Source of the DNA: a phage
Length of the DNA stretch: 18,895 nucleotides
Sequence record: PZ049716.1
Direction: 5' to 3' (one strand)
Position 1 is the stretch's first letter; every line of letters starts with the position of its first letter. A program made the translations under genes and the position numbers. Of the stretch, positions 4,779 through 18,863 are shown piece after piece. The notes under the pieces are model-generated. The model did no database searches, was not told the DNA's origin, and saw nothing but the letters and a program-made list of their open reading frames with translations.

Positions 4779-5732
4779 TCATGGCCCGTCGTAGCGAATG
4801 GCCCAGCCGAAGGTGCCACTGTGGTCTAACGCAATACCGCCGGCAGGAACCGCTGAGTTCTTGCGGTAGAACGGGAAAATGATCCAGCGGTCGGGCCCCA
4901 GGGTAATAATTTGGCCAGGTTCATAGTTGTTGACCCTGACGTAGCGCGCATGACGGACCTGGCAAACCAGCGAACATTTGCTCGAAGCTCTCCACTGGTG
5001 AATTTTGATCGGGATGAGGATTGCCTCGTTGTTCCATGCGTTGGGAGATCTGCCGACGTGAGGCGCTGCGGGGTAAATTGCGTTCAGAGCACCGACGCTG
5101 TCCCCCTGGACACCTCCAAACCAGCTACCCGAGTCCAATCCGGTGTGTAACGTATGCGGCCAATGCGTGGCTCCCTGACTACTGTCGGTCTCCCAGAAAA
5201 AAGCGGTGCTGCCATACGCCGAGACACTGCTGTGAGCTACGCCTCCGTTAGTAGCGCTGATCGTGGCGCCCCCAGACGGGGCGGTGCCATAACCACACCG
5301 CGATGACGCAGAAAGCCATAGACCTGAACCAGGCAGTTCAGACTGGTCTGAGAGCCCGAATGACAGCCAATAGTGGTAGTCGATGCCGAAGTTGAGTACC
5401 AGATACACCTCATCTGGATTTGCATGGACCATGACATGGTACGTCGCCGGCCAAACCAACGCTGCCCATTCTCCCGCGCTACCTGGCCTACCGAGCCTAG
5501 GGCGCGCTGCGCTCGCGCCACTCAGAACGCCACCACTTGAGCCGGTACCTCCTTCGACAATCAATCCTGGGCCTTCGGTGGTGGTGGCTGACGCAGACAC
5601 ATAGGGCCGAACAAACGCCGAACCCTTGCTGAGGATCGTACCGTCCCAGGCCCATCCCTCTGCCACGCAGGCGCTGGTCAGTGCGCTCAGCAGATCGCTA
5701 TAGTTGTTTACCGATCCGGTGTAGTAGGCCAT
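4779..5732 (-). CDS. Putative tail fibre / receptor-binding-like protein (317 aa), paralog of the upstream gene
   Basis: ORF track; start overlaps the upstream stop (TGATG); N-terminus shares a pattern with the 280-aa protein (L..L....A..GW......L.KG); C-terminal half coding DNA is ~53-58% GC against >62% elsewhere. Confidence 0.45.
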   Translation of the reverse strand: MAYYTGSVNNYSDLLSALTSACVAEGWAWDGTILSKGSAFVRPYVSASATTTEGPGLIVEGGTGSSGGVLSGASAARPRLGRPGSAGEWAALVWPATYHVMVHANPDEVYLVLNFGIDYHYWLSFGLSDQSELPGSGLWLSASSRCGYGTAPSGGATISATNGGVAHSSVSAYGSTAFFWETDSSQGATHWPHTLHTGLDSGSWFGGVQGDSVGALNAIYPAAPHVGRSPNAWNNEAILIPIKIHQWRASSKCSLVCQVRHARYVRVNNYEPGQIITLGPDRWIIFPFYRKNSAVPAGGIALDHSGTFGWAIRYDGP

Positions 5733-6575: not shown

Positions 6576-9047
6576 TCAGAGTCCCAGTAGCTGGCGCACT
6601 TCGGCGCCGTTCTGTTGCAGGTAGACGAGGAAATGCTCCTGCCCGGGTTTGCTCCAGGCAGCGGCCGCCACGTCCTCGGGGCGCTGGACGGCGTACAGGT
6701 TCACGCTGTTCTTGAGGTTGGTGCTCATGCCCTTGGCCGGCTCGGCCAGGCGGGTGTTTGCCAGCCCAGGCGATGGCAAGGCCGGTGCCGGCACGCCTGC
6801 AAGGCCACCGGTCGAGTGACGCACGCGGTAGTCGTTGACTGCAGCCATGCCTCGGGCGTTGAAGTCGTGCAAAAAGTTCAGCGCACCAGGTTGCTGCACA
6901 ACAGCTGCACGGGTGACGAACTCGTAGTTCGATAGCCAAGCCGGGATGCTGTCGCTGGTGGTAGTACCAGGGCCGGTGATATGGCCACCAGTGGAAGCGG
7001 CTACTGCCGCAACCGATGCAGCACTCGAAAGCGCATTGCTGGTCGAGCTGGCCACCTTGGCGCCGGCGATCGCCGACGCCATCGCTGCAGCTGCAGATGC
7101 CCCAGCCGATGTGATTGCGGTACCCATAGCAGTCGCAGCCGTCGTGCCACCAGCTGTGATCCCTGTGCCCATTGCCGTGGCGCCGGCGGTCGATGCCGTG
7201 GTGATGGCCGTTGCCGTTGCCGTTGCCGCGGCCGTCTCAGCCGCTGCATCAGCACCACTGCCGAACATGCCCATCACACTGTTGGTCAGCCCTTCAGCCA
7301 GGTTCTTCGCGGCCATCTGCGCCAGGGCATCGGCCACGCTCTGGCCGAGGGCGGTGACGGCCTCGCGCAGGTTCATGGTGCCAGTTGCCAGGCCAGAAAG
7401 CGCCGAGGTCAAGCCGCCCTCGATGCCGGTGCGCAGGGTCTCCTGCAGGAGCGTGGTGGTAGCGAGCAGGCGGTTGGCCTGGGCGTCGAGATTGTCCAGC
7501 GCCTGCTGGGCGGAGGCGCCGATCGCACCGGGCATCTGCGCCATCTCAGCCAGCAGCGGGCGAATCTCCTGCAGCTGAGCATTCGTCTGGCGGTGGATCT
7601 CCAGAATCCGCTCGCGCGCGCCGACCTCGCTCAAAAGCCCGGCCTGCTGCTCGGCCTGCACCGATTGTTCTTGGCGGGTCTGCTCGGCCAGCACTTGGTC
7701 GTACAGACGCTGGATCTCGTTGAAGCGGATCTGCGCCTGCTCGACGTTCACCAGGCTGTTGATGATGTTCAGGCCGGCGGTGTCACCGTTGGCCTGCAGG
7801 CGCTGCATCAGTTCGCCATAGCGCTGCTCGATCTCGATCGTCAGCGCCTCGGCGTCGCGGCCCTCGGCGCGCAGCAGCTGGGCGCGCAGGCCGGCGATCT
7901 GGCGGGCGTCAGCATCGAGCTGCTGCTTGCGCTCCTCGGCAGCGATCAATGCCTGGGCGGCAATGGCTCGATCGCGCAGCGCGCCGGTCAGGCCCTTCTC
8001 GGCCAGCTCGTAGGCGCGCACCTGGTCAGTGCTCAGGCCGAGCAGCGCGGCGCTACGCTCCAGTCCGCGCACGTATTGTTCCTGCTGTCGGGTCTGCTGC
8101 TGGCTGGCCTGGGCGGCGGCCTTGCTCGCTTCGCCACTGGCGCGCTTGGCATCGATCTCCTGGGCGTAGCGCAGCAGGGCCTGTTGCTGGGCGGCGTCCA
8201 GTTCGCCCAACTCGCCGCGCTCGATGGCGTAGCGCACGCGGGCGGCTTCACTGGTGACGCCAAACAGCTCGGACTGTTTTTGCAGGTTGGTAAGGAGTTT
8301 GTCGTATTCCTTGTTCGCCGCCTTGACCTCTTCGGTCTCAGTGGTAACCGGGATCTCTACTGTCGGCTTGGCTGGCGCATTGCGCAGCACGTCCTCGATG
8401 CGCTTGATCTCGGCGCGGATCTCATCGTCGCTGACAAAGCTGATCAGCCCGTCATCGCCGAAGAAGCGCAGGCGCTCGCCGAGGTTGAACAGGCTGTCAT
8501 CAGCGAGCAGGCCGCGCAGGTCTTCGAGACGCTGCTGCAGACCGTCCACGTTCGAATCAGCGACGTCGACGCCGAGGCGGCCCAGGAAAGCGAGAAAGTT
8601 GCCGCCCTCGGCCGCAGCAGCAGCCAGGGAGCCAGTCAATCGCACCAGGCTACTGACAAGCGAATCAACACCCTGTGCGGTCGCCGGGTCGCTCAGCACC
8701 TGGGTGAGCTTCTCGATCTCTCCAGCTGACTCCTTGAGCCCGCCCTTGGCCTCCAGCAAGTCGCCAAACGCGTTCTTCAGCGCCTGGATACTGCCACCCA
8801 GGGTTTCGCGAGCCGCGCGAGCACTGCCGCCCATCTGCGTCTCTAGCTCGGCCAGAATGATCTTCTGTGCATCGAGAATCCGCCCGGACTCGACCAGGGT
8901 CTGTATCTGATCCTTCTGTTGCTCGGTGAACTGCACGCCAACGCGCGTCAGTGCGGCCACACCCTGGATGGGATCGTTGAGCGCCTTACCCAGCTGGATG
9001 GCCGAGGACTTGAGGTCTTGACCCATTGCGGTGCTCATATCGAGCAC
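6576..9047 (-). CDS. Tail tape measure protein, main segment (frame continues upstream of the GTG the track uses as start)
   Basis: 823-aa ORF; N-terminus MSTAMGQDLKSSAIQLGKALNDPIQG is the conserved tape-measure core; long coiled-coil middle; Ala/Thr/Gly-rich low-complexity C-terminus. Confidence 0.75.
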   Translation of the reverse strand: MLDMSTAMGQDLKSSAIQLGKALNDPIQGVAALTRVGVQFTEQQKDQIQTLVESGRILDAQKIILAELETQMGGSARAARETLGGSIQALKNAFGDLLEAKGGLKESAGEIEKLTQVLSDPATAQGVDSLVSSLVRLTGSLAAAAAEGGNFLAFLGRLGVDVADSNVDGLQQRLEDLRGLLADDSLFNLGERLRFFGDDGLISFVSDDEIRAEIKRIEDVLRNAPAKPTVEIPVTTETEEVKAANKEYDKLLTNLQKQSELFGVTSEAARVRYAIERGELGELDAAQQQALLRYAQEIDAKRASGEASKAAAQASQQQTRQQEQYVRGLERSAALLGLSTDQVRAYELAEKGLTGALRDRAIAAQALIAAEERKQQLDADARQIAGLRAQLLRAEGRDAEALTIEIEQRYGELMQRLQANGDTAGLNIINSLVNVEQAQIRFNEIQRLYDQVLAEQTRQEQSVQAEQQAGLLSEVGARERILEIHRQTNAQLQEIRPLLAEMAQMPGAIGASAQQALDNLDAQANRLLATTTLLQETLRTGIEGGLTSALSGLATGTMNLREAVTALGQSVADALAQMAAKNLAEGLTNSVMGMFGSGADAAAETAAATATATAITTASTAGATAMGTGITAGGTTAATAMGTAITSAGASAAAAMASAIAGAKVASSTSNALSSAASVAAVAASTGGHITGPGTTTSDSIPAWLSNYEFVTRAAVVQQPGALNFLHDFNARGMAAVNDYRVRHSTGGLAGVPAPALPSPGLANTRLAEPAKGMSTNLKNSVNLYAVQRPEDVAAAAWSKPGQEHFLVYLQQNGAEVRQLLGL

Positions 9048-9475
9048 CGTCTCCAGGGCGCGGGGAACACCTCGCGGCCGATCTTGGTGAAGGTGAGCAG
9101 CAGCGACTGAGCCGGGATCACCGCTTCATCGCCGTAGGTGGTCACCTGCTGCATGGCGCTGGCCATCTCCAGCAGTTCGTCGCGGGTCAGGCCAGCGGCA
9201 CCCTGAGTAGAGCGAAGGGTTTGTTCAAGCTGAGCAGTTACACGCTCCTGCTCGATGGTGGCGCTGATCACCGCCTTGTAAACGGCGCCGCCTGCAAAGG
9301 CAGCAACGACATTGCCGATGGTCTTGCCCAGCTTCTCCATATCGCGGCTGGACGACTGGGCCTGCTGGCCGTTGGCCTCGACGGCGCCCTCCAGCTGCTT
9401 CAGCTCACCGATCGCCTGCTGCAGATCGGCGCGGATGCGCATTGCCAGTTCGAGGTTCTTGCCTGCCAGAGCCAT
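9035..9475 (-). CDS. Tail tape measure protein, N-terminal segment (146 aa) separated from the main segment by an apparent frameshift
   Basis: ORF track; ...TRDELLEMASAMQQVTTYGDEAVIPAQSLLLTFTKIGREVFP is the first half of the same conserved core domain that continues in the 6576..9047 frame. Confidence 0.6.
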   Translation of the reverse strand: MALAGKNLELAMRIRADLQQAIGELKQLEGAVEANGQQAQSSSRDMEKLGKTIGNVVAAFAGGAVYKAVISATIEQERVTAQLEQTLRSTQGAAGLTRDELLEMASAMQQVTTYGDEAVIPAQSLLLTFTKIGREVFPAPWRRCSI

Positions 9476-9531
9476 GGGGTGCGGTCACATAGAGGGAATG
9501 TGCCGCCATGCTCGCGCGCGCGATGTGAGAT

Positions 9532-13937: not shown

Positions 13938-14345
13938 TTAGATCTCGACCCAGACGCCATCGCTATCCACATCGCGGATAACGCCGGCAACCGAGCGGGT
14001 GTTGGTGGCGGAGGTCTTAGCGACCGTCTGGTCGTCGACGATGTAGGCCGTGGCGCCGATATCGGCACGGGTGATCTCGTCGGCCGAGGCGCTGTTGACG
14101 AACGGGAACACGCCACGGCGGGTTTCCACGCGCAGATCACCAGCGGCACCGGCGGAGTTATCGACGTACTCCTGTGCAACCCCACGGGCTTTCAGGGTGG
14201 CGGAGGTGCTGCCCGGCACGGCGAAACCCGAGGCGTTGATGCACACCAGAGCACCAGCGAAAACCTTGGTGCTGCCGGCTACCGGGTCGGAGTACTGCAC
14301 GCCATCACGGCGCTTGGTGTTGCGGTCTTTGGTCAGCGCAGTCAT
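13938..14345 (-). CDS. DUF2190-like head structural / decoration-type protein (135 aa)
   Basis: ORF track; GAGGAG Shine-Dalgarno; glycine-rich beta-type pattern GVFPFVNSASADEITRADIGATAYIVDD...AGVIRDVDSDGVWVEI; sits between protease/scaffold and capsid genes. Confidence 0.45.
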   Translation of the reverse strand: MTALTKDRNTKRRDGVQYSDPVAGSTKVFAGALVCINASGFAVPGSTSATLKARGVAQEYVDNSAGAAGDLRVETRRGVFPFVNSASADEITRADIGATAYIVDDQTVAKTSATNTRSVAGVIRDVDSDGVWVEI

Positions 14346-14348
14346 GGC

Positions 14349-15452
14349 TTATTGCTCCTCGGCCTTGGCGGCCTTGAACTGTTCGGCGGTCAGGTTCATG
14401 CGCGAGCACACAGCCAGCTCGTCCTGAGTCAGCCCGGTTTTCTCGTCCGCCACCGGAGGCTCACCGCCAGTCTGGCTGCGGCTCAGCGCAGCAATCGGCT
14501 TCGCCTTGTCCAGGTAGGCAGTCAGCGCAGCGCGGTTGCTCTTGCCGAGGTCGCGTGCCCACTCTTCCATCGGTTTGGCCAGGCGGCCGTCTTCCAGGGC
14601 GGCGGTGATCTGGCTGTCGAGGTCCTTGTCATCACGCTCACCCAGGCGAGCGGTCAGCGCGGCGATCTCGGCTTGCATGCCCTCGATAGCCGACACCGGT
14701 ACGAACTTGGCGGGGTCAACAGAGGTAGCGGCCTTGGCCTTGAGGCCGGTGCAGGCTGCCAGCATGGCTTCGCCACCGGCCTTTTCATCCAGGCCCAGCA
14801 GCTTGCGCAGGTTGGTGGTGTGGGCGGAGAGCGCGGCGACTGCCTGCTCTTCGGTGGTGTTCTCGGCCAGGCCGAGGGCGGCGATCAGCGCCAGCAGCAA
14901 TTGGTTCACGGGGTTTTCCTCTGGGGAGTCATCGAAACAGCCGAACGACGCGGCGGCGCGCAGGCTGAGTTCCTGCATGCCGTCGATAGCCGGGGCATTG
15001 GTGAGCGCGCCCATCTGCACGTCCAGGACGTCGCCGGTGGTCGGGTGGTAAAGGAACACGGGGGAGAAATACTGGTACTCGCCCTCGGCGATGTACTGCG
15101 CGGCGCGGGCAGTCAGTTGCACCTGGGCAAACAGGCCTTCGCCCTCACGCCACTCCAGGGCCTGGTACCAACCTGCAGCTGGAGCGGGCTGGCCGTTCTC
15201 TTCCTTGAGCAGGGTCTGGTGTTCGTAGTCGACCACGCGCTTGTTCTTGCGAGCGTGGAAGCGCTCGATGACCTTGGTGGCCACTGCCTGGTTGATGTGC
15301 CAGGACGGCACCTTGATCTCGCGGCCATCTGCCGGCAGGAAATGGCCAGCCGGGGTCACCTGAACCCAGATGGTGTTGTCGGCAGCCGGCGCCCCCAGTA
15401 CGAAACTGCAGGCGGCGAGTGCAACGGCGAGAGGGAGGCGTTTTGTCTTCAT
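14349..15452 (-). CDS. Head maturation protease / scaffold protein, Mu I/Z-like
   Basis: Start trimmed to first ATG (MKTKRL...); VDYEHQTLLKEENGQPAPAAGWYQALEWREGEGLFAQVQLTARAAQYIAEGEYQYFSPVF matches the Mu gpI protease signature; C-terminal half is charged and helical, scaffold-like. Confidence 0.7.
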   Translation of the reverse strand: MKTKRLPLAVALAACSFVLGAPAADNTIWVQVTPAGHFLPADGREIKVPSWHINQAVATKVIERFHARKNKRVVDYEHQTLLKEENGQPAPAAGWYQALEWREGEGLFAQVQLTARAAQYIAEGEYQYFSPVFLYHPTTGDVLDVQMGALTNAPAIDGMQELSLRAAASFGCFDDSPEENPVNQLLLALIAALGLAENTTEEQAVAALSAHTTNLRKLLGLDEKAGGEAMLAACTGLKAKAATSVDPAKFVPVSAIEGMQAEIAALTARLGERDDKDLDSQITAALEDGRLAKPMEEWARDLGKSNRAALTAYLDKAKPIAALSRSQTGGEPPVADEKTGLTQDELAVCSRMNLTAEQFKAAKAEEQ

Positions 15453-15482
15453 GCCGGCAGCTTGGCGCTGCGGGCCGGGCAA

Positions 15483-15503
15483 GTAATTTTGACGGGGCAA
15501 AAA
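15483..15503 (-). repeat. 21-bp motif copy B (plus-strand gtaattttgacggggcaaaaa)
   Basis: Lies ~30 nt upstream of the protease/scaffold ATG and just downstream of the cassette terminator. Confidence 0.6.
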
Positions 15504-15529
15504 TCTCGCTGGCTGGCGAGGGCATTACG

Positions 15530-15561
15530 GCAGGAAATAAAGCCCGGCGTGAGGCCGGGCT
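15530..15561 (-). terminator. Intrinsic terminator ending the accessory cassette
   Basis: Minus-strand 8-bp GC stem (AGCCCGGC / GCCGGGCT, loop 5 nt) followed by TTATTT. Confidence 0.6.
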
Positions 15562-15569
15562 AGGGAGGG

Positions 15570-15887
15570 TCAGCGCACGCGCAGGGCGTGGTCGGCGGGG
15601 TAGTCCAGCAGGGCCAGGGTGTTGTGCAGGGCTTGATCGGCCAGCTCCTGCACTTTGTAGGCCTGCTGTTCCAGGTCGCCGGCCAGCACGTCCACCAGTT
15701 GGCACAGGTCGCTGCGCGACACATGGTCGAGCATGGCCGGGGTTTCGTCGCCTTCGGCATCCACCGGCAGCGGCACGGCCAGCAGTTGTTTCAGGGCGCT
15801 CAGGGCGCCCATGCGTTCGGCCAGGCGGCGCGCTGCAAAAGCGTTGATGGCCGCCACCTGGTCGGGGCGCAGCTCATGCAGGCTCAT
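15570..15887 (-). CDS. Acidic hypothetical protein (105 aa), no recognisable family; candidate accessory / anti-defence effector
   Basis: ORF track; ATG overlaps the stop of the Bro-N gene (ATGA at 15884-15887); about 16 Asp/Glu against 8 Lys/Arg; followed by a terminator. Confidence 0.5.
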   Translation of the reverse strand: MSLHELRPDQVAAINAFAARRLAERMGALSALKQLLAVPLPVDAEGDETPAMLDHVSRSDLCQLVDVLAGDLEQQAYKVQELADQALHNTLALLDYPADHALRVR

Positions 15888-16597
15888 TGCTCACCATCCT
15901 TGCTGCTCAGCGGCAGCAGGGCGACGGCGGCGGCCTGTTGCAGGTGCCGGCCAATGCGGTCGAGCTGGTCGGCCAGCGGCTGGTTGTGCGCCGAGTTGCA
16001 GAAGCGCTGGGCCAGGCGCTGCTGCTGCTCGATCAGCCGCGCCTGCTCGTTCTCCAGGTGCTTGGCCGCCACGGCGGCCAGCAGCTCGGGGCTGCACTGT
16101 GGGCTGCCGGCGGCGGGGCTGAACTGGTACTTGGCGTGCAGCAGCAGGTTGACCGTGGGTTTGGACAACCCCAGCTGGCGGGCGATATTGGCCTGGCTCC
16201 AGCCGCCCACGAACAACTCCAGCACCCGCCGTTCTATTTCGCGAGTGACCAGCACGCGGCCGCTGGGCGCTTTCGGTGGAGCCATAAGGGCATCGAGGAT
16301 GTCCAGCACCCACTTGCGGAACTCGGCTGCCACCGGCGTGCGGGCGAACATGCCCAGCAGGTGGGCGCCGCGCAGGGAGAATATACGGGTTTGTTGAATA
16401 CCGCCGGCAGTCTGCAGATCGACTAAGGCGGTCATGCCGTCGGTGAACTCCGCAGCATTCTTTTCGTACAGCTTCCAGATAGCGTGATCCGGCCGTGCAT
16501 ACCCCAAGGCACCTCCGATCTGGAGGCCCCTTAGCCAATGCTGGCCATTGCGGTCGATAACGTCGAACTGGGTATCGCGGAAGGTGAGCGCTTTCAT
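15884..16597 (-). CDS. Bro-N domain protein with central helix-turn-helix and C-terminal coiled coil (237 aa); putative regulator / antirepressor
   Basis: ORF track; GGAG Shine-Dalgarno 7 nt before ATG 16597; N-terminus TFRDTQFDVIDRNGQHWLRGLQIGGALGY...EF...GGIQQTRIFSLRGAHLLGMF...AAEFRKWV matches Bro-N; GWSQANIARQLGLSKPTVNLLLH is HTH-like. Confidence 0.6.
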   Translation of the reverse strand: MKALTFRDTQFDVIDRNGQHWLRGLQIGGALGYARPDHAIWKLYEKNAAEFTDGMTALVDLQTAGGIQQTRIFSLRGAHLLGMFARTPVAAEFRKWVLDILDALMAPPKAPSGRVLVTREIERRVLELFVGGWSQANIARQLGLSKPTVNLLLHAKYQFSPAAGSPQCSPELLAAVAAKHLENEQARLIEQQQRLAQRFCNSAHNQPLADQLDRIGRHLQQAAAVALLPLSSKDGEQ

Positions 16598-16605
16598 GGT
16601 GGGAC

Positions 16606-16680
16606 TCCGTAAGGTTCAGTCAATGCCTGATGGATTAGTAGCCCATCAGGTGGTCGGGACTCAACTAGGGCCTTACGGAC
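16606..16680 (-). promoter_or_regulatory. Nested inverted repeats and promoter-like elements immediately upstream of the Bro-N gene
   Basis: Outer inverted repeat ccgtaagg (16607-16614) / ccttacgg (16671-16678); inner perfect palindrome cctgatgg-9 nt-ccatcagg (16626-16650); minus-strand -35 TTGAGT (16659-16664) and -10 TACTAA (16635-16640) with 18-nt spacer; the 3' arm of the outer repeat abuts the Shine-Dalgarno sequence. Confidence 0.45.
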
Positions 16681-16730
16681 CCCTGGCGCTTCTTCCCCCG
16701 AAGGGTGTTGTATCCGCGCTCTCATCCCGA

Positions 16731-16762
16731 CCATAAAAGCAAACGCCAGCCCGAGGGCTGGC
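16731..16762 (-). terminator. Intrinsic terminator inside the G / Bro-N intergenic region
   Basis: Minus-strand GCCAGCCC-TC-GGGCTGGC stem followed by GTTTGCTTTTAT. Confidence 0.5.
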
Positions 16763-16812
16763 GGCAGGCGGCGTGGTCAGTGCCGTGGCTGCCGTAAGGT
16801 TTAGTGCCTAAA

Positions 16813-16841
16813 ACACTAGCCCAGCGTTACCACCTTGGCAA
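16813..16841 (-). promoter_or_regulatory. Sigma-70-like promoter candidate on the minus strand
   Basis: -35 TTGCCA (16836-16841), 17-nt spacer, -10 TAGTGT (16813-16818); lies ~50-70 nt upstream of the terminator at 16731-16762. Confidence 0.3.
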
Positions 16842-16860
16842 CAGCTTTTCCATTTAAGGC

Positions 16861-16960
16861 GTCGCCGAAACGGCGACACCCGGCGCGGATGCCGCCAAAG
16901 GGGTGGTCAAAATGGCGACCCCTTTTGATGACACTACATTCGTCGCCGTTTTGGCGACGA
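16861..16960. promoter_or_regulatory. Array of operator-like palindromes with GGCGAC arms
   Basis: gtcgccg-aaa-cggcgac (16861-16877), half-site ggtcaaaatggcgacc (16905-16920), tcgtcgcc-gtttt-ggcgacga (16940-16960); centre-to-centre spacing ~40 bp. Confidence 0.45.
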
Positions 16961-17167
16961 AACCCCCAAGAAGGAAGCTCGTATTTTCGCCGGTTTTCCC
17001 GGTTTTCCCAGGCTCTGGCCCAAAACTCACTCCAGGCCTGATGCAGAGCCGTGTTTATAAACGCCCAAACAGCCCCGGAAAGGGCCAGAGGCACCCGGAT
17101 ACATACAACGGCAGCCCCCTGGGGGCCTTAAAACGCTTCTACGGGCCTTTGCGGCGGTTTGCGGTTT

Positions 17168-17656
17168 TCAGCCCTGCAAACGGGCCTGCAGGTGATCGCG
17201 GGCGATGGCGATGATCTCCGCTGCGTCATCATCGGAGATACCGAGGAACGGCCGCGCCGGAATGTCGCCCCAGGGGATGGGCGCGCCGCGACGGGTTTTG
17301 CCGAAGGCGCCCTTGAGCGCGCCGAACTGATGCACCGCACCGTATACCCGATCGGTGCCCACCAGCAGGGTGGCGCCTTCGACCTGCGGGAAGATCTGCC
17401 GCACAAGATCGCCACGCCGCTGCAGGATCTTGCCAGGGTTCGGCGACTTGGTTTCCAGGTAGCGCGGGCTGAGTGACTTCCAGGTCTGGCCATCCGGCCC
17501 GCGTTGCGCGCTGAAGCGGTCGCGGGTGCTGTTGACCAGCGCCTCGCCGATGTCCAGCAGCATCGGCCTTGGGTCAGTCAGCTCGGCCAAGGCGCCGCGA
17601 ATAGCCGACAACACGGCGGCGTTGTCGAACTCCAGCTCTACCCGTGCGCCGCTCAC
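17168..17656 (-). CDS. Virion morphogenesis protein, Mu G-like (162 aa)
   Basis: ORF track (GTG start overlapping the upstream stop); LLDIGEALVNSTRDRFSAQRGPDGQTWKSLSPRYLETK...VGTDRVYGAVHQFG matches the Mu gpG signature. Confidence 0.7.
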   Translation of the reverse strand: MSGARVELEFDNAAVLSAIRGALAELTDPRPMLLDIGEALVNSTRDRFSAQRGPDGQTWKSLSPRYLETKSPNPGKILQRRGDLVRQIFPQVEGATLLVGTDRVYGAVHQFGALKGAFGKTRRGAPIPWGDIPARPFLGISDDDAAEIIAIARDHLQARLQG

Positions 17657-18177
17657 AGCTCACCCTCCAGCAGCACCAGTTGCCCGGCCTGCAGGCGGCG
17701 GCGCACAGCAGCGATATCCAGCGCCTGCTGCACGCTGTTGGCCCCGGTATCGCCGCTCACCTGGTAGCGCACGACAAGGGCCAGGTCATCGCCATACACA
17801 TACACCAGGCTGTTGCTGCCGGCATCGAGCAGCACGGCGCGCGGCCGGGCCAGTGCGGCGGGTACGCTACCGAAGCGCTCGGCGGCGACGGCACGCGTAT
17901 CGCGCGCCTTGCCGGCCAGCATGCGCAGCATAGCCACGTCGCTGATGCCGATTACCGCCGTCAGCGGCGTTACCCCGGCGCCGGCCAGGCCGGTGACCAG
18001 GTTCGGGCTGATGCTGCCCACCAGCATGCTGCGGCCGCGATCCACGCCGTCCATCACCACATCATCGAGCAGGCGGCGCCAGTCGTTGTCGATCGCCCGG
18101 CTCACAGCACCGTGCTCCAGCAGCTGCTGCGCCATGCTCGCGGCCGGCGCTGCCGGCAGGCGTTCGGTCTTGCTCAT
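17653..18177 (-). CDS. Hypothetical protein (174 aa) between the F-like and G-like genes
   Basis: Start trimmed to the first ATG (18177), which overlaps the F-like stop (ATGA); its stop overlaps the G-like GTG start; fills the gap exactly; no family recognised. Confidence 0.5.
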   Translation of the reverse strand: MSKTERLPAAPAASMAQQLLEHGAVSRAIDNDWRRLLDDVVMDGVDRGRSMLVGSISPNLVTGLAGAGVTPLTAVIGISDVAMLRMLAGKARDTRAVAAERFGSVPAALARPRAVLLDAGSNSLVYVYGDDLALVVRYQVSGDTGANSVQQALDIAAVRRRLQAGQLVLLEGEL

Positions 18178-18863
18178 GCTGAGTTGCACCTGGCGCTCCA
18201 GGGCGCTGCGACCTGGTGCATAGCCCCAGCCGGGTCGATACCTTCGGGCACCTCAACGATCTCGCCCTTGTACTCGATGCGCCGCGTCTGGCTGGCCGGC
18301 GCCTTGTCCGGGCCATCCTTGCCCAGGCGCTTGAGGTCGCGCTCGTTCAGCGCCCGCACCCGGCATTGGCAGCCCCAGCCGTTGGGCGGGTAATGGGTTT
18401 GCCACCAGGGATCATCCGCCGGGATCACCAGGCCGTGCCACGCTTCATGCTCGGGGCGCGGGGCGATCACCGCATCGCTGTGCTCGTACATCCAGTAGGG
18501 CCGCGTGGCCTTCACCTCCTGCAGCTGCTGGTAGCGGCCGGCGGCGTAGCTGGTGCGCAGGTTCGTCTCGTAGATCACCCGCGAGCGCCAGGCGCGGCCG
18601 CCATCTGGCTGCCAGCCGTAGTTGTCCAGGACGGCGGCGAAGTCCTCGCGGAACGCCTCCAGGGTGTCGCCGTTGTCCAGGGCGCTCTGCAGCACCTGCT
18701 GAATATCCGCCACCATGTCAGCGCGGTGAGCCCCGGCCACCACGAAGGCGTGGTCATGCGCGGCGCCGCGCACGGCGAAGTAATCCACGCTCGGCAGCTT
18801 GCGGCGCAGGAACTCGTTCTGCTCACGGAACGGCAGGCTGCCGTAGCTGGCGGGTTCGGCCAT
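18174..18863 (-). CDS. Head morphogenesis protein, Mu F-like / SPP1 gp7 family (229 aa)
   Basis: ORF track; GAAHDHAFVVAGA...GRAWRSRVIYETNLRTSYAAGRYQQL...RPYWMYEH...PRPEHEAWHGLV...PPNGWGCQCRV matches the Mu F domain. Confidence 0.75.
   Translation of the reverse strand: MAEPASYGSLPFREQNEFLRRKLPSVDYFAVRGAAHDHAFVVAGAHRADMVADIQQVLQSALDNGDTLEAFREDFAAVLDNYGWQPDGGRAWRSRVIYETNLRTSYAAGRYQQLQEVKATRPYWMYEHSDAVIAPRPEHEAWHGLVIPADDPWWQTHYPPNGWGCQCRVRALNERDLKRLGKDGPDKAPASQTRRIEYKGEIVEVPEGIDPAGAMHQVAAPWSARCNSA

What the first reader, a model, noticed from the sequence alone, without database searches (positions are those of the whole stretch)
15884..16597. Bro-N / HTH / coiled-coil protein encoded first in the cassette
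Its N-terminal ~105 aa match the Bro-N pattern, followed by an HTH-like segment and a Gln/Ala/Leu-rich helical tail. Classical aca regulators are short HTH proteins, so a Bro-N fusion here would be an unusual regulator or antirepressor architecture. It is a plausible binder of the palindromes found upstream.
Basis: partly seen in the sequence, partly recalled or inferred. Interest (0 to 1): 0.55.

Follow-up and report, generated by a model that had tools for sequence, protein, structure and literature searches.

The report
RNA-gated antirepressor-type gene cassette in prophage
The gene does encode a Bro-N plus helix-turn-helix protein, but the nearer upstream "palindrome" is a small antisense RNA pairing with the gene's ribosome-binding site, so this looks like a phage P1-style RNA-controlled antirepressor cassette inside a Mu-like prophage, not an anti-CRISPR regulator.

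Summary
ORF 15884-16597 (-) encodes a 237-aa protein with a Bro-N domain (aa 12-100), a sigma70-r4/LuxR-type HTH (aa 120-154) and a helical hairpin tail.

The interpretation needs correcting.
- The ORF is the first gene of a ~1.3-kb self-contained cassette (about 16860-15540). Its order is promoter, short terminated leader, ~89-nt structured RNA, Bro-N-HTH gene, a translationally coupled orphan 105-aa ORF, and a terminator.
- The RNA (16732-16644) matches Rfam sRNA-Xcc1 (50.6 bits, E 5e-8), just under the family cut-off of 53.
- Its hairpin loop UCCGUAAGG is perfectly complementary to CCUUACGGA over the gene's Shine-Dalgarno sequence. A second target copy lies in the leader.
- In near-identical cassettes all three sites change together, giving three specificity types. 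Two types co-reside in one genome.
- Most Bro-N homologue loci in other bacteria carry a C4 or sRNA-Xcc1-type RNA with the same geometry.
- This matches the phage P1/P7 c4-icd-ant, P4 CI and Gifsy-1 IsrK logic.
- The 16858-16961 palindromes lie outside the mobile cassette and are missing from close relatives.

Verdict: a new variant of a known kind, of moderate interest. Antirepressor activity is inferred, not shown.

The parts
15540..16860 (-). Whole autonomous cassette (moron): promoter, leader, antisense RNA, Bro-N-HTH gene, ORF105, terminator
   Evidence: This span aligns end to end with L084, where the same unit sits between the tail chaperone and tape-measure genes instead of between Mu G and Mu I. 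In the window it lies between Phage_tail_S/G (17168-17656) and the Mu-like protease I (14349-15500).
16813..16841 (-). Sigma70-like promoter: TTGCCA (16841-16836), 17-nt spacer, TAGTGT (16818-16813). Inferred transcription start near 16809.
   Evidence: Read from the sequence. The hexamers and spacing are conserved in L081, L084, L086, L087, L091 and L092, and analogous hexamers occur in L089 and L007. The consensus scanner did not call it because the -10 matches only 3 of 6. Inferred.
16735..16809 (-). Short structured leader, the analogue of IsrK, P4 seqA or P1 a1/b1. It has a single-stranded target copy CCUUACGG (16799-16792), a hairpin, and an intrinsic terminator (16763-16744 plus a U-tract).
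   Evidence: Terminator scan. The 8-mer repeat is I14. The hairpin keeps pairing through G-C to U-A compensatory changes (helix 2). The target copy co-varies with the loop and the RBS site.
16644..16732 (-). About 89-nt structured antisense RNA of the sRNA-Xcc1 class, functionally C4/CI-like
   Evidence: Rfam RF02221: 50.6 bits (gathering score 53), E 5e-8, full-length match to model positions 1-87. My own covariance model R2 gives 84.7 bits, but this sequence was one of the three it was built from. All helices are kept in relatives. The backbone is nearly invariant, and variation is concentrated in the loop.
16671..16679 (-). Specificity loop UCCGUAAGG of the third hairpin (analogue of seqB or a'/b')
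   Evidence: Perfect 9-nt complement of 16614-16606 and 8-nt complement of 16799-16792 (I7 and I14). CCTTACGG occurs only three times in the 18.9-kb window, all within this module, against 0.3 expected.
16626..16650 (-). Conserved hairpin directly after the RNA (CCUGAUGG-GCUACUAAU-CCAUCAGG). Role unknown; possibly 3' end formation.
   Evidence: I13. Five pairs show compensatory changes in L084, and the loop is conserved (helix 8).
16605..16614 (-). Target site CCUUACGGA overlapping the Shine-Dalgarno GGAG (16608-16605) of the Bro-N gene (analogue of seqC or b2)
   Evidence: positions -17 to -9 relative to the ATG. The same geometry is found in most of the RNA-bearing loci tested.
15884..16597 (-). 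Bro-N / HTH / helical-hairpin protein, 237 aa. Bro-N is about 16597-16283, the HTH about 16243-16136, and the helical hairpin about 16090-15938.
   Evidence: C-terminal module shuffling with Rha and AntA N-domains is shown.
15570..15887 (-). ORF105: an acidic orphan protein predicted as two long helices, translationally coupled to the Bro-N gene through an ATGA overlap
   Evidence: Only two homologous clusters exist, always directly after the Bro-N-HTH gene. No Pfam, PHROG, NCBIfam, PADLOC or PDB match. AlphaFold2 gives a helical hairpin with pLDDT 79.
15541..15561 (-). Intrinsic terminator closing the cassette
   Evidence: It is the last segment shared with L084.
16858..16961 (.). Three palindromes GTCGCC-N5-GGCGAC spaced about 40 bp apart. 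They flank the cassette but are not part of it. Function unknown.
   Evidence: Present only in the window, L081 and L082. Absent from L084, L086, L087, L091 and L092. Similar palindromes lie upstream of the promoter in the Alishewanella locus L089.

Best explanation
**Proposed function.** The ORF encodes an antirepressor-family protein: a Bro-N N-domain plus an interchangeable C-terminal HTH/helical-hairpin module. It is the first gene of a ~1.3-kb self-contained cassette inserted in the head-gene region of a Mu-like prophage. Its expression is gated by a cis-encoded, trans-acting antisense RNA, not by a protein operator.

**Proposed sequence of events.**
1. A sigma70-type promoter (16841-16813) fires independently of the phage late operon.
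2. Most transcripts stop at the leader terminator (16763-16744). This yields a ~70-nt RNA that carries a copy of the target sequence.
3. Read-through transcripts carry the ~89-nt sRNA-Xcc1-type RNA, the Bro-N-HTH gene and the coupled ORF105.
4. The RNA has a tRNA-like closing stem followed by ACC. By analogy with P1 C4, it is probably excised by RNase P and accumulates.
5. Its loop UCCGUAAGG pairs with CCUUACGGA over the Shine-Dalgarno sequence. This blocks translation of Bro-N-HTH and, through coupling, of ORF105. It may also pair with the leader copy to modulate termination or be titrated by it.
6. In an established lysogen the protein is therefore off. It is made in a burst on infection, before the RNA accumulates. 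It is also made by a superinfecting phage whose target sites do not match the resident RNA. This is the P1/P7 heteroimmunity logic.
7. The protein then most likely antagonises a repressor or otherwise re-programmes transcription.

**Status of each step.** Shown by computation: the domain architecture, the RNA family match, the three-site complementarity and its covariation, the cassette's mobility, the terminators and the ATGA coupling. Inferred: promoter use, RNase P processing, translational block, and antirepressor activity and its target.
For: **Domains.**

**RNA.** Rfam sRNA-Xcc1 at 16732-16644, E 5e-8. Structure is kept in relatives: 98 % of cells are paired, 7 pairs carry compensatory changes, and slid controls give 29-51 %.

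**Three-site complementarity.**
- The loop matches the RBS site over 9 nt and the leader copy over 8 nt.
- The 8-mer is found nowhere else in the 18.9-kb window.

**Three-way covariation (leader copy | loop | RBS site) in near-identical backbones.**
- Window, L084, L086, L091: CCTTACGG | CCGTAAGG | CCTTACGG.
- L087: CCTGTAGG | CCTACAGG | CCTGTAGG.
- L092: CCAAACGG | CCGTTTGG | CCAAACGG.
- Also seen in more distant loci: L089 CAAAGAG | CTCTTTG | CAAAGAG, and L007 TATACGG | CCGTATA | TATACGG.
- L091 and L092 are two prophages of one genome carrying different specificities.

**Generality.**
- Among 80 loci encoding Bro-N homologues, my C4 model hits directly upstream of the gene in about 48 and my Xcc1-type model in about 7 more.
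- In nearly all of these, 7-11 nt of the variable loop complement positions -20 to -7 of the start codon.
- Cognate RNA-leader pairs average 7.8 nt of complementarity against 5.5 nt for non-cognate pairs.
- The upstream target copy averages 7.3 nt against 5.1 nt in a control region.
- Seven further Xcc1-type RNAs in those loci all precede antirepressor-type genes: Rha, AntA, Bro-N (three), KilA-N and P22_AR_N.

**Mobility.** The same cassette sits at a different site in L084.

**Precedents.**
- The P1 record annotates a1,b1 / c4 / a2,b2 / icd / ant1 with the same geometry.
- P1 immunity is described in PMC8198154 and PMC5320573.
- IsrK / STnc1160 / AnrP in Gifsy-1, with a comparison to P4 CI and seqA/seqC, is in PMC4825925.
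Against: - No expression data exist for this locus.
- The RNA scores just below Rfam's gathering threshold (50.6 against 53).
- The -10 hexamer is weak.
- The protein has no detectable homology to P1 Ant, which has only a KilAC domain. 'Antirepressor' for Bro-N proteins is largely an annotation label.
- The HTH argues that the protein may bind DNA itself.
- About 24 of the 80 Bro-N loci have no recognisable upstream RNA.
- L081 and L082 carry a loop that does not match their RBS site. These may be real derepressed recombinants or assembly chimeras.
- Why an antirepressor would sit among head genes of a transposable phage is not explained.
Confidence: 0.62

Rival explanations
1. One reading: an aca-like autoregulator of an anti-CRISPR-type operon. 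The HTH protein binds inverted repeats at the cassette promoter and shuts off transcription, and ORF105 is the anti-defence payload.
For: - The cassette occupies the accessory hot spot just upstream of the protease-scaffold gene. In P. aeruginosa Mu-like phages this region holds acr genes and aca1 (region RGP G in PMC4378225; the exact G|I placement is from my own knowledge of Bondy-Denomy 2013).
- ORF105 is small, acidic and an orphan.
- Three regularly spaced palindromes lie just upstream of the promoter, and similar ones occur in L089.
Against: - No similarity to any known Acr or Aca family, or to any solved structure.
- The HTH gene comes first and is itself under antisense-RNA control.
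- The nearer 'palindrome' is RNA-RNA pairing that co-varies across relatives.
- The distal palindromes are absent from L084, L086, L087, L091 and L092, which keep the cassette.
- The cassette also occurs at a non-acr site.
- The N-domain is shared with antirepressor families, and the C-terminal module swaps with Rha and AntA N-domains.
Confidence: 0.1
2. A toxin/antitoxin-like or abortive-infection module. The stable RNA acts as an antitoxin that represses a growth-inhibiting DNA-binding protein (Bro-N-HTH, with or without ORF105), and the protein is released when the RNA is lost or titrated.
For: - In Xanthomonas integron cassettes, sRNA-Xcc1 lies directly upstream of the toxin gene symE (10.1101/2025.06.18.660453).
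- Bro-like/KilA-domain proteins can be growth-inhibitory when overexpressed (PMC5944126 abstract).
- Expression of the Gifsy-1 AnrP cascade arrests growth (PMC4825925).
- The cassette is self-contained and mobile.
Against: - No match in PADLOC.
- The RNA and the mRNA come from one transcript, and the RNA is expected to be the more stable partner. That is the opposite of classical type I addiction.
- The diversification of specificity, and the co-residence of two types in one genome, fit immunity discrimination better than addiction.
Confidence: 0.13
3. A DNA-binding transcription factor rather than a protein-binding antirepressor. The HTH, possibly together with Bro-N, recognises phage or host promoters, possibly including the GTCGCC-N5-GGCGAC palindromes. 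It still sits under the same antisense-RNA gate.
For: - The sigma70-r4/LuxR-type HTH is above the Pfam cut-off.
- The helical hairpin could serve as a dimerisation element.
- Bro-N is widely regarded as a DNA-binding domain; BRO proteins bind DNA according to PMC7313666, citing Zemskov 2000.
- The palindromes are spaced about four helical turns apart.
- The window and L081/L082, which have the palindromes, share an identical HTH sequence that differs from the HTH of the palindrome-less L086/L087 cassettes. These are closely linked lineages, so this is not independent evidence.
Against: - The palindromes are not conserved with the cassette.
- No further copies occur in the 18.9-kb window beyond chance: 6 matches at up to 2 mismatches against 3.1 expected.
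- There is no structural match beyond a generic HTH.
Confidence: 0.15

Closest known systems
Phage P1/P7 immI operon (c4 antisense RNA - icd - ant1/2)
   Same: - A constitutive promoter drives one transcript that carries both the antisense RNA and its target.
- The RNA has a tRNA-like closing stem and variable loops.
- Target copies lie both upstream (a1, b1) and downstream (a2, b2, over the RBS) of the RNA, at similar distances.
- Specificity differs between related phages and sets heteroimmunity (PMC5320573).
- The downstream gene is annotated as an antirepressor.
   Different: - The RNA belongs to the sRNA-Xcc1 structural class, not C4. Neither Rfam RF01695 nor my C4 model hits it.
- One recognisable loop/target pair was found rather than two (a' and b').
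- There is no icd-like leader ORF; the RBS of the antirepressor-type gene itself is masked.
- The protein is Bro-N + HTH, whereas P1 Ant1 has only a KilAC domain.
- The host element is a transposable Mu-like phage, and the module sits among head genes.
Gifsy-1 IsrK / STnc1160 (orf45) / AnrP locus, and satellite phage P4 CI RNA with seqA/seqC
   Same: - A short terminated leader RNA lies upstream of a processed stable RNA, with an antirepressor-like gene downstream.
- Read-through of the leader terminator is needed to make the mRNA.
- Leader and downstream sequences share complementarity with the middle RNA (PMC4825925).
- In other Bro-N loci, Rfam isrK sits about 100 nt upstream of C4, which sits upstream of the Bro-N gene (L067, L022).
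   Different: - The window's leader does not match Rfam isrK. Its only hit is a weak one to Esr41 (24 bits).
- There is no orf45-type upstream ORF.
- Whether the leader RNA activates (as IsrK does) or merely duplicates the target is unknown.
sRNA-Xcc1 (Rfam RF02221), described as an integron-encoded trans-acting sRNA of Xanthomonas campestris
   Same: Full-length match to the family model with the same helices and the conserved AUACAA-CCC...GGG core. It is encoded directly upstream of a protein gene on the same strand, as with symE in Xanthomonas integrons and an ORF6N gene in APSE phages.
   Different: - The score is 2.4 bits below the gathering cut-off.
- The papers retrieved here treat the family as a virulence-linked sRNA with unlinked targets.
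- Here the evidence points to a cis-linked target, the RBS of the next gene, plus an upstream decoy copy. That is C4/CI-type logic.
acr-aca operons of Pseudomonas Mu-like phages (JBD30, D3112 group)
   Same: Same kind of phage and the same accessory hot spot next to the protease-scaffold gene. It is a small self-contained operon with its own promoter that contains an HTH protein. The predicted 'burst then shut-off' dynamics are analogous.
   Different: No acr or aca homology. The HTH protein is large, encoded first and fused to Bro-N. Shut-off is predicted to be by antisense RNA at the RBS, not by a repressor at the promoter.
Bro-N / Rha / AntA / KilA-N + variable C-domain phage 'antirepressor' proteins (for example phi11 Gp07, Bro-like + KilA-type C-domain)
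   Same: An N-terminal Bro-N domain is joined to a swappable C-terminal module. The same C-module is found behind Rha and AntA N-domains.
   Different: The C-module is a sigma70-r4/LuxR-like HTH plus a helical hairpin, not KilAC/ANT or ORF6C. This module is rare: 92 representative clusters at E <= 1e-3.

Membership tests
Pfam Bro-N (PF02498) | Profile match above the gathering score | tested here: met
   42.1 bits against 25.6, aa 12-100. The AlphaFold2 model is confident over aa 1-105.
Sigma70 region 4 / LuxR-type HTH (PF08281, PF00196) | Profile match above the gathering score | tested here: met
   PF08281 scores 27.1 against 25.7, which is marginal. GerE scores 20.6, below its 23.5 cut-off. 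A three-helix unit is modelled at aa 119-154.
Rfam sRNA-Xcc1 (RF02221) | Score at or above the curated gathering score | tested here: not met
   50.6 bits against 53, so nothing is reported at the gathering threshold. However, E is 5e-8 and the match covers model positions 1-87 in full.
Rfam sRNA-Xcc1 (RF02221) | Family secondary structure: closing stem, AUACAA internal loop with a CCC/GGG hairpin, and a variable hairpin | tested here: met
   Alignment to the model. All helices are kept in 5 related cassettes. Relatives L026 and L007 score 73 and 63.5 bits, above the cut-off.
Rfam C4 antisense RNA (RF01695) | Match to the C4 covariance model | tested here: not met
   No C4 hit at this position in the Rfam scan at E <= 10 or with my own C4 model R1.
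C4/CI-type antisense immunity module (functional class: P1 c4, P4 CI, Gifsy-1 STnc1160) | RNA encoded upstream of its target on the same strand, within the same transcription unit | tested here: met
   The RNA ends 47 nt before the ATG on the same strand, with no promoter-like site between them.
C4/CI-type antisense immunity module (functional class: P1 c4, P4 CI, Gifsy-1 STnc1160) | A loop complementary to the ribosome-binding region of the downstream gene | tested here: met
   A 9-nt perfect match covers positions -17 to -9 and overlaps GGAG.
C4/CI-type antisense immunity module (functional class: P1 c4, P4 CI, Gifsy-1 STnc1160) | A second copy of the target upstream of the RNA (a1/b1, seqA) | tested here: met
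   CCTTACGG at 16799-16792. Across loci the upstream copy averages 7.3 nt against 5.1 nt in a control region.
C4/CI-type antisense immunity module (functional class: P1 c4, P4 CI, Gifsy-1 STnc1160) | Loop and targets change together between related elements (specificity types) | tested here: met
   Three types occur in near-identical backbones, plus further types in distant relatives.
C4/CI-type antisense immunity module (functional class: P1 c4, P4 CI, Gifsy-1 STnc1160) | RNA excised from the precursor (by RNase P in P1), and repression of translation or read-through in vivo | not testable with these tools
   Only circumstantial: the RNA starts with GGU after the terminator U-tract, and its closing stem is followed by ACC. 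The GGW processing motif is reported in PMC5320573.
P1-type Ant antirepressor (KilAC/ANT domain, PF03374) | Presence of a KilAC domain, or sequence similarity to P1 Ant1 | tested here: not met
   No ANT hit in the window protein. P1 Ant1 has only the ANT domain. BLASTP between the two gives nothing meaningful.
Antirepressor (function: binds and inactivates a phage repressor) | Physical or genetic antagonism of a repressor | not testable with these tools
   Only family-level labels (PHROG 'anti-repressor Ant') and context shared with Rha, AntA, KilA-N and P22_AR_N genes.
Anti-CRISPR-associated (Aca) regulator | HTH protein encoded in an operon with, and typically downstream of, a recognised acr gene | tested here: not met
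   The only partner is orphan ORF105, which has no match in the libraries searched. None of those is an anti-CRISPR library. The HTH gene is first in the operon.
Anti-CRISPR-associated (Aca) regulator | Binds inverted repeats overlapping its own promoter to repress it | not testable with these tools
   The candidate repeats at 16858-16961 lie upstream of the -35 and are missing from close relatives of the cassette.
Anti-CRISPR-associated (Aca) regulator | Sequence similarity to Aca1-Aca13 | not tested
   No Aca library was available. Pfam assigns a sigma70-r4/LuxR-type HTH.

The most novel reading that the evidence does not exclude
Transposable (Mu-like) Pseudomonas phages may carry a portable, RNA-addressed 'identity' cassette.
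- A tiny change in one hairpin loop, with matching changes at two target sites, would create new specificity types.
- This would let co-resident or superinfecting Mu-like phages tell self from non-self.
- It would release a burst of a Bro-N-HTH effector, plus a variable acidic cargo protein (ORF105), only in the non-self or fresh-infection situation.
- In this reading the antisense RNA does the job that Aca repressors do for anti-CRISPR operons (early burst, then shut-off). ORF105 would be a new anti-defence or anti-immunity payload, delivered from the same hot spot that holds acr genes.
- The sRNA-Xcc1 family, so far treated as a virulence-linked trans-acting sRNA, would be reinterpreted as a second structural class of C4/CI-type immunity RNA.
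Probability: 0.2. Interest if true: 0.7.

Novelty: new variant of a known kind. Interest (0 to 1): 0.45.

Why it matters
- **It corrects an attractive mis-reading.** Position in the acr hot spot plus an HTH does not make a gene an aca. A 'palindrome' next to a start codon can be an antisense-RNA/RBS pair rather than an operator.
- **It ties the sRNA-Xcc1 family to a concrete cis-linked target.** In the papers retrieved here this family is treated as a virulence-linked or integron sRNA. Here it is linked to a testable mechanism, and it is shown to sit in front of antirepressor-type genes (Bro-N, Rha, AntA, KilA-N, P22_AR_N) across beta- and gammaproteobacteria.
- **It offers a clean experimental system.** There are three natural specificity types in almost identical backbones, and two of them sit in one genome. 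That is the raw material for cross-immunity experiments like the classic P1/P7 ones, now in transposable phages.
- **It exposes an annotation gap.** Routine annotation would miss the RNA entirely, because it scores below the Rfam cut-off.

Tried and rejected
- Megablast of 14300-17700, and blastn of the leader/RNA region, against isolated phage genomes: no match. No close cultured relative exists in that collection.
- A joint MAFFT alignment of C4 and Xcc1-type RNAs was uninformative. The two are different structural classes, so separate covariance models were built.
- Foldseek of the full-length model against the PDB gave only generic LuxR/MarR HTH hits with E > 0.02. No fold assignment was made for the C-terminal hairpin.
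- A PDB profile search of the family gave only weak HTH matches.
- NCBIfam and PADLOC gave nothing meaningful for either protein.
- ORF105 has no Pfam, PHROG or PDB match and only two homologous clusters. It shows no similarity to the 74-aa ORF that follows the Alishewanella homologue. The AlphaFold2 model is a plain helical hairpin, so I judged a fold search uninformative and did not run one.
- An exact search for the central palindrome in IMG/VR found no copies, so there is no evidence that it is a repeated mobile element.
- A formal per-column count of loop-to-target pairs was not attempted. MAFFT puts the three specificity types out of register at the loop and at the RBS, so the triplets were read directly from the sequences instead.
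- Twelve Bro-N loci without a C4 or Xcc1 hit were scanned with Rfam and gave nothing. The RNA gate is therefore common but not universal for Bro-N genes.
Full report
**1. The observation**

The - strand carries an ATG-initiated ORF of 237 aa from 16597 to 15884. GGAG lies 7 nt upstream of the ATG. The domain evidence is:
- Pfam Bro-N at aa 12-100 (E 1.4e-10, 42.1 bits against a cut-off of 25.6).
- A sigma70 region-4 type HTH at aa 120-154 (27.1 bits against 25.7), with GerE, HTH_23 and other HTH models hitting the same residues.
- PHROG families labelled 'anti-repressor Ant' matching the N-terminal 105 aa (best E 6.9e-39).
- An AlphaFold2 model built on 18 homologues. It shows a confident Bro-N fold (aa 1-105), a three-helix HTH (119-154) and two long helices (170-199, 203-220) separated by low-confidence linkers.

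The full-length architecture is conserved in about 24 protein clusters from Pseudomonas/Ectopseudomonas, Marinobacter, Alishewanella and Pseudothauera. The description in the finding is therefore correct. Only 'coiled coil' remains unshown.

**2. Context**

All genes in this part of the window are on the - strand and belong to the late region of a Mu-like prophage:
- the C-terminal part of an F-like protein, 18174-18863;
- G / Phage_tail_S, 17168-17656;
- then 570 bp without a credible ORF;
- the Bro-N-HTH gene;
- a 105-aa ORF (15887-15570) whose ATG overlaps the Bro-N stop codon (ATGA);
- an intrinsic terminator, 15561-15541;
- the Mu-like protease I, 14349-15500.

Close homologues sit at the same G|I junction. 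These are L081, L086 from P. sihuiensis, L087 from E. chengduensis, and L091/L092.

In L084 (protein 80 % identical) G and I are adjacent. There the same unit, corresponding to window 16860 to 15540, lies between the tail chaperone and tape-measure genes. In Alishewanella it lies between Mu F and the capsid gene and is followed by an unrelated 74-aa ORF.

The unit is therefore a ~1.3-kb autonomous cassette with its own promoter and terminator. Its GC content is slightly lower than that of its flanks.

**3. The upstream region is RNA, not an operator**

An Rfam scan places sRNA-Xcc1 (RF02221) at 16732-16644 on the - strand. It scores 50.6 bits (gathering score 53), E 5e-8, and covers model positions 1-87. 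At the gathering threshold nothing is reported in the whole window.

The loop of its third hairpin, UCCGUAAGG (16679-16671), is the perfect complement of CCUUACGGA (16614-16606). That site spans positions -17 to -9 of the start codon and overlaps the GGAG. A further CCUUACGG lies at 16799-16792, upstream of the RNA (I7 and I14). The 8-mer occurs only at these three places in 18.9 kb, against 0.3 expected.

Upstream of the RNA there is a sigma70-like promoter (TTGCCA, 17-nt spacer, TAGTGT; 16841-16813). It is conserved in relatives but has a weak -10. It is followed by a short leader holding the upstream target copy, a hairpin, and an intrinsic terminator (16763-16744 plus a U-tract) that ends 3 nt before the RNA.

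A further conserved hairpin (16650-16626) follows the RNA. On five related cassettes, 98 % of cells in the proposed helices are paired. Seven pairs carry compensatory changes. Slid controls fall to 29-51 %.

**4. Covariation**

In cassettes whose RNA backbone is otherwise almost invariant, the differences cluster at the three short sites and change together.

| Loci | Leader copy | Loop | RBS site |
|---|---|---|---|
| window, L084, L086, L091 | CCTTACGG | CCGTAAGG | CCTTACGG |
| L087 | CCTGTAGG | CCTACAGG | CCTGTAGG |
| L092 | CCAAACGG | CCGTTTGG | CCAAACGG |
| L089 (more distant) | CAAAGAG | CTCTTTG | CAAAGAG |
| L007 (more distant) | TATACGG | CCGTATA | TATACGG |
| L001 (C4-type RNA) | TCTGAGG | CCTCAGA | TCTGAGG |

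L091 and L092 are two Mu-like prophages of one genome carrying two different types.

L081 and L082 come from metagenome assemblies. They combine a type-1 loop with type-3 target sites, so they are either derepressed recombinants or assembly chimeras.

**5. Generality**

I examined 80 genomic loci encoding Bro-N homologues.
- Rfam finds C4 (RF01695) or sRNA-Xcc1 ending 50-70 nt before the gene in 9 of the 12 loci scanned. In three of those, isrK or AaHKsRNA82 lies about 100 nt further upstream.
- My C4 model hits that position in about 48 loci, and my Xcc1-type model in about 7 more.
- In nearly all of these, 7-11 nt of the variable loop complement positions -20 to -7 of the start codon, with different sequences in different loci.
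- Cognate pairs average 7.8 nt of complementarity against 5.5 nt for non-cognate pairs.
- The target is duplicated upstream of the RNA, averaging 7.3 nt against 5.1 nt in a control region.
- Seven additional Xcc1-type RNAs elsewhere in these loci all precede genes with antirepressor-type N-domains: Rha, AntA, Bro-N (three), KilA-N+ORF6C and P22_AR_N+ORF6C.
- About 24 loci show no such RNA.

**6. Comparison with known systems**

*P1.* The annotated P1 record shows the same layout: promoters, a1/b1, c4 RNA (77 nt), a2/b2 (b2 lies 11-18 nt before icd), icd and ant1. In P1 the C4 RNA is needed for full repression of ant (PMC8198154). It is cut out by RNase P at a GGW motif, and its loops determine specificity (PMC5320573). 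The window RNA begins with GGU, and its closing stem is followed by ACC.

*Gifsy-1.* Transcripts from the isrK promoter either stop at a terminator, giving short IsrK, or read through into a translationally inactive mRNA. That mRNA holds a stable processed RNA (STnc1160) and the antirepressor-like anrP. The authors liken this to P4 CI RNA with seqA and seqC (PMC4825925).

*This window.* The module fits this class in layout and in the tested sequence features. Three things differ. The RNA is of the sRNA-Xcc1 structural class rather than C4. The leader does not match isrK. The protein is unrelated to P1 Ant1, which has only a KilAC domain.

*sRNA-Xcc1 in the literature.* Retrieved papers treat it as a virulence-linked trans-acting sRNA. 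They note it upstream of symE in Xanthomonas integron cassettes and upstream of an ORF6N gene in APSE phages. None of those retrieved links it to C4/CI-type control.

**7. The protein**

The C-terminal half (aa 110-237) finds 92 representative clusters at E <= 1e-3, and it is almost always the C-terminal half of a 230-270-aa protein. Among 36 of these proteins, the N-domain is Bro-N in 24, Rha in 4 and AntA in 1.

This is the domain-swapping pattern typical of phage 'antirepressor' proteins. It supports assigning the protein to that broad class. It does not show what the protein binds.

The HTH leaves open that the protein acts on DNA. No fold match beyond a generic HTH was obtained.

**8. The distal palindromes**

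Three GTCGCC-N5-GGCGAC palindromes lie at 16858-16961, about 40 bp apart and just upstream of the -35.
- They sit in a ~140-bp indel present in the window, L081 and L082.
- They are absent from L084, L086, L087, L091 and L092, and they lie outside the segment shared with L084.
- Similar palindromes occur upstream of the promoter in the Alishewanella locus L089.
- No exact copy of the central palindrome exists in IMG/VR.

They are not needed for the cassette. Their role is unknown. Binding by this HTH is possible but unsupported.

**9. ORF105**

ORF105 is acidic and predicted to form two long helices. Only two homologous clusters exist, always directly after this Bro-N-HTH gene. It has no family or structure match.

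Distant relatives of the Bro-N-HTH gene carry other ORFs, or none, in this position. ORF105 therefore looks like variable cargo expressed under the same RNA gate.

**10. Verdict**

The finding's description is confirmed. Its regulatory interpretation (aca-like, palindrome-binding) is mostly not supported.

The best-supported reading is an antisense-RNA-gated, antirepressor-type cassette working like P1/P7 immI. It has naturally diversified specificities and is carried as a mobile unit in Mu-like prophages.
- The regulatory logic rests on strong comparative evidence: roughly 0.8 for RNA control of the RBS.
- The biochemical role of the protein is inferred: roughly 0.4-0.5 for antirepressor.
- Overall this is a new variant of a known kind, of moderate interest.

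Noticed in passing
window 16644-16732 (-): The structured RNA scores 50.6 bits against Rfam sRNA-Xcc1 (cut-off 53), so a standard Rfam annotation of this window reports no RNA at all. Across loci this family behaves like a second structural class of C4/CI-type antisense RNA placed in front of antirepressor-type genes, yet Rfam lists it without a clan.
   Followed up: yes
L091 and L092 (two prophages of IMG genome 2667527235), about 5434-5661 in each: Two Mu-like prophages in one genome each carry the cassette at the G|I junction, but with different loop/target triplets (CCGTAAGG type and CCGTTTGG type). This is what heteroimmune specificity would predict.
   Followed up: partly
L081 1266-1490 and L082 644-868: The cassettes encoding the closest homologue (92 %) have a type-1 RNA loop but type-3 RBS targets. 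L081 also has a type-3 leader copy, while L082 has a type-1 leader copy. They are either naturally derepressed recombinants or metagenome assembly chimeras.
   Followed up: partly
window 16858-16961: A ~140-bp block with three regularly spaced GTCGCC-N5-GGCGAC palindromes is an indel relative to otherwise collinear relatives. Similar palindromes lie upstream of the Alishewanella cassette (L089 about 5565-5625). No copy was found in IMG/VR. Function unknown.
   Followed up: partly
window 16626-16650 (-): The hairpin immediately 3' of the RNA has a conserved loop (GCUACUAAU) and five compensatory base-pair changes in L084. It may be a processing or 3'-end element.
   Followed up: partly
window 15570-15887 (-): An orphan acidic 105-aa ORF is translationally coupled to the Bro-N-HTH gene and predicted to form a two-helix hairpin. 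It is found only with this gene in Pseudomonas-group cassettes and is a candidate variable cargo.
   Followed up: partly
window 16962-17167: About 200 bp between the G stop codon and the palindrome block are conserved in all relatives with the G|I insertion (L081, L086, L087, L091, L092). This stretch does not align with the G-I spacer of L084. It contains a GC hairpin (GGCCCCCAGGGGGC) and no credible ORF; the 92-aa GTG ORF at 16816-17094 has no family hit.
   Followed up: no
L074, L075, L034, L019, L054, L072 (several positions): Single Pasteurellaceae or Enterobacterales loci carry two or three separate RNA-plus-antirepressor-type modules (Bro-N, AntA, Rha, KilA-N, P22_AR_N), each with its own loop/target sequence.
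   Followed up: partly
L084 7592-9143: The junction between the tail chaperone and tape-measure genes is a second insertion site for the same cassette in Mu-like prophages. In the window, the equivalent junction (about 9047-9500) has no such insert.
   Followed up: no
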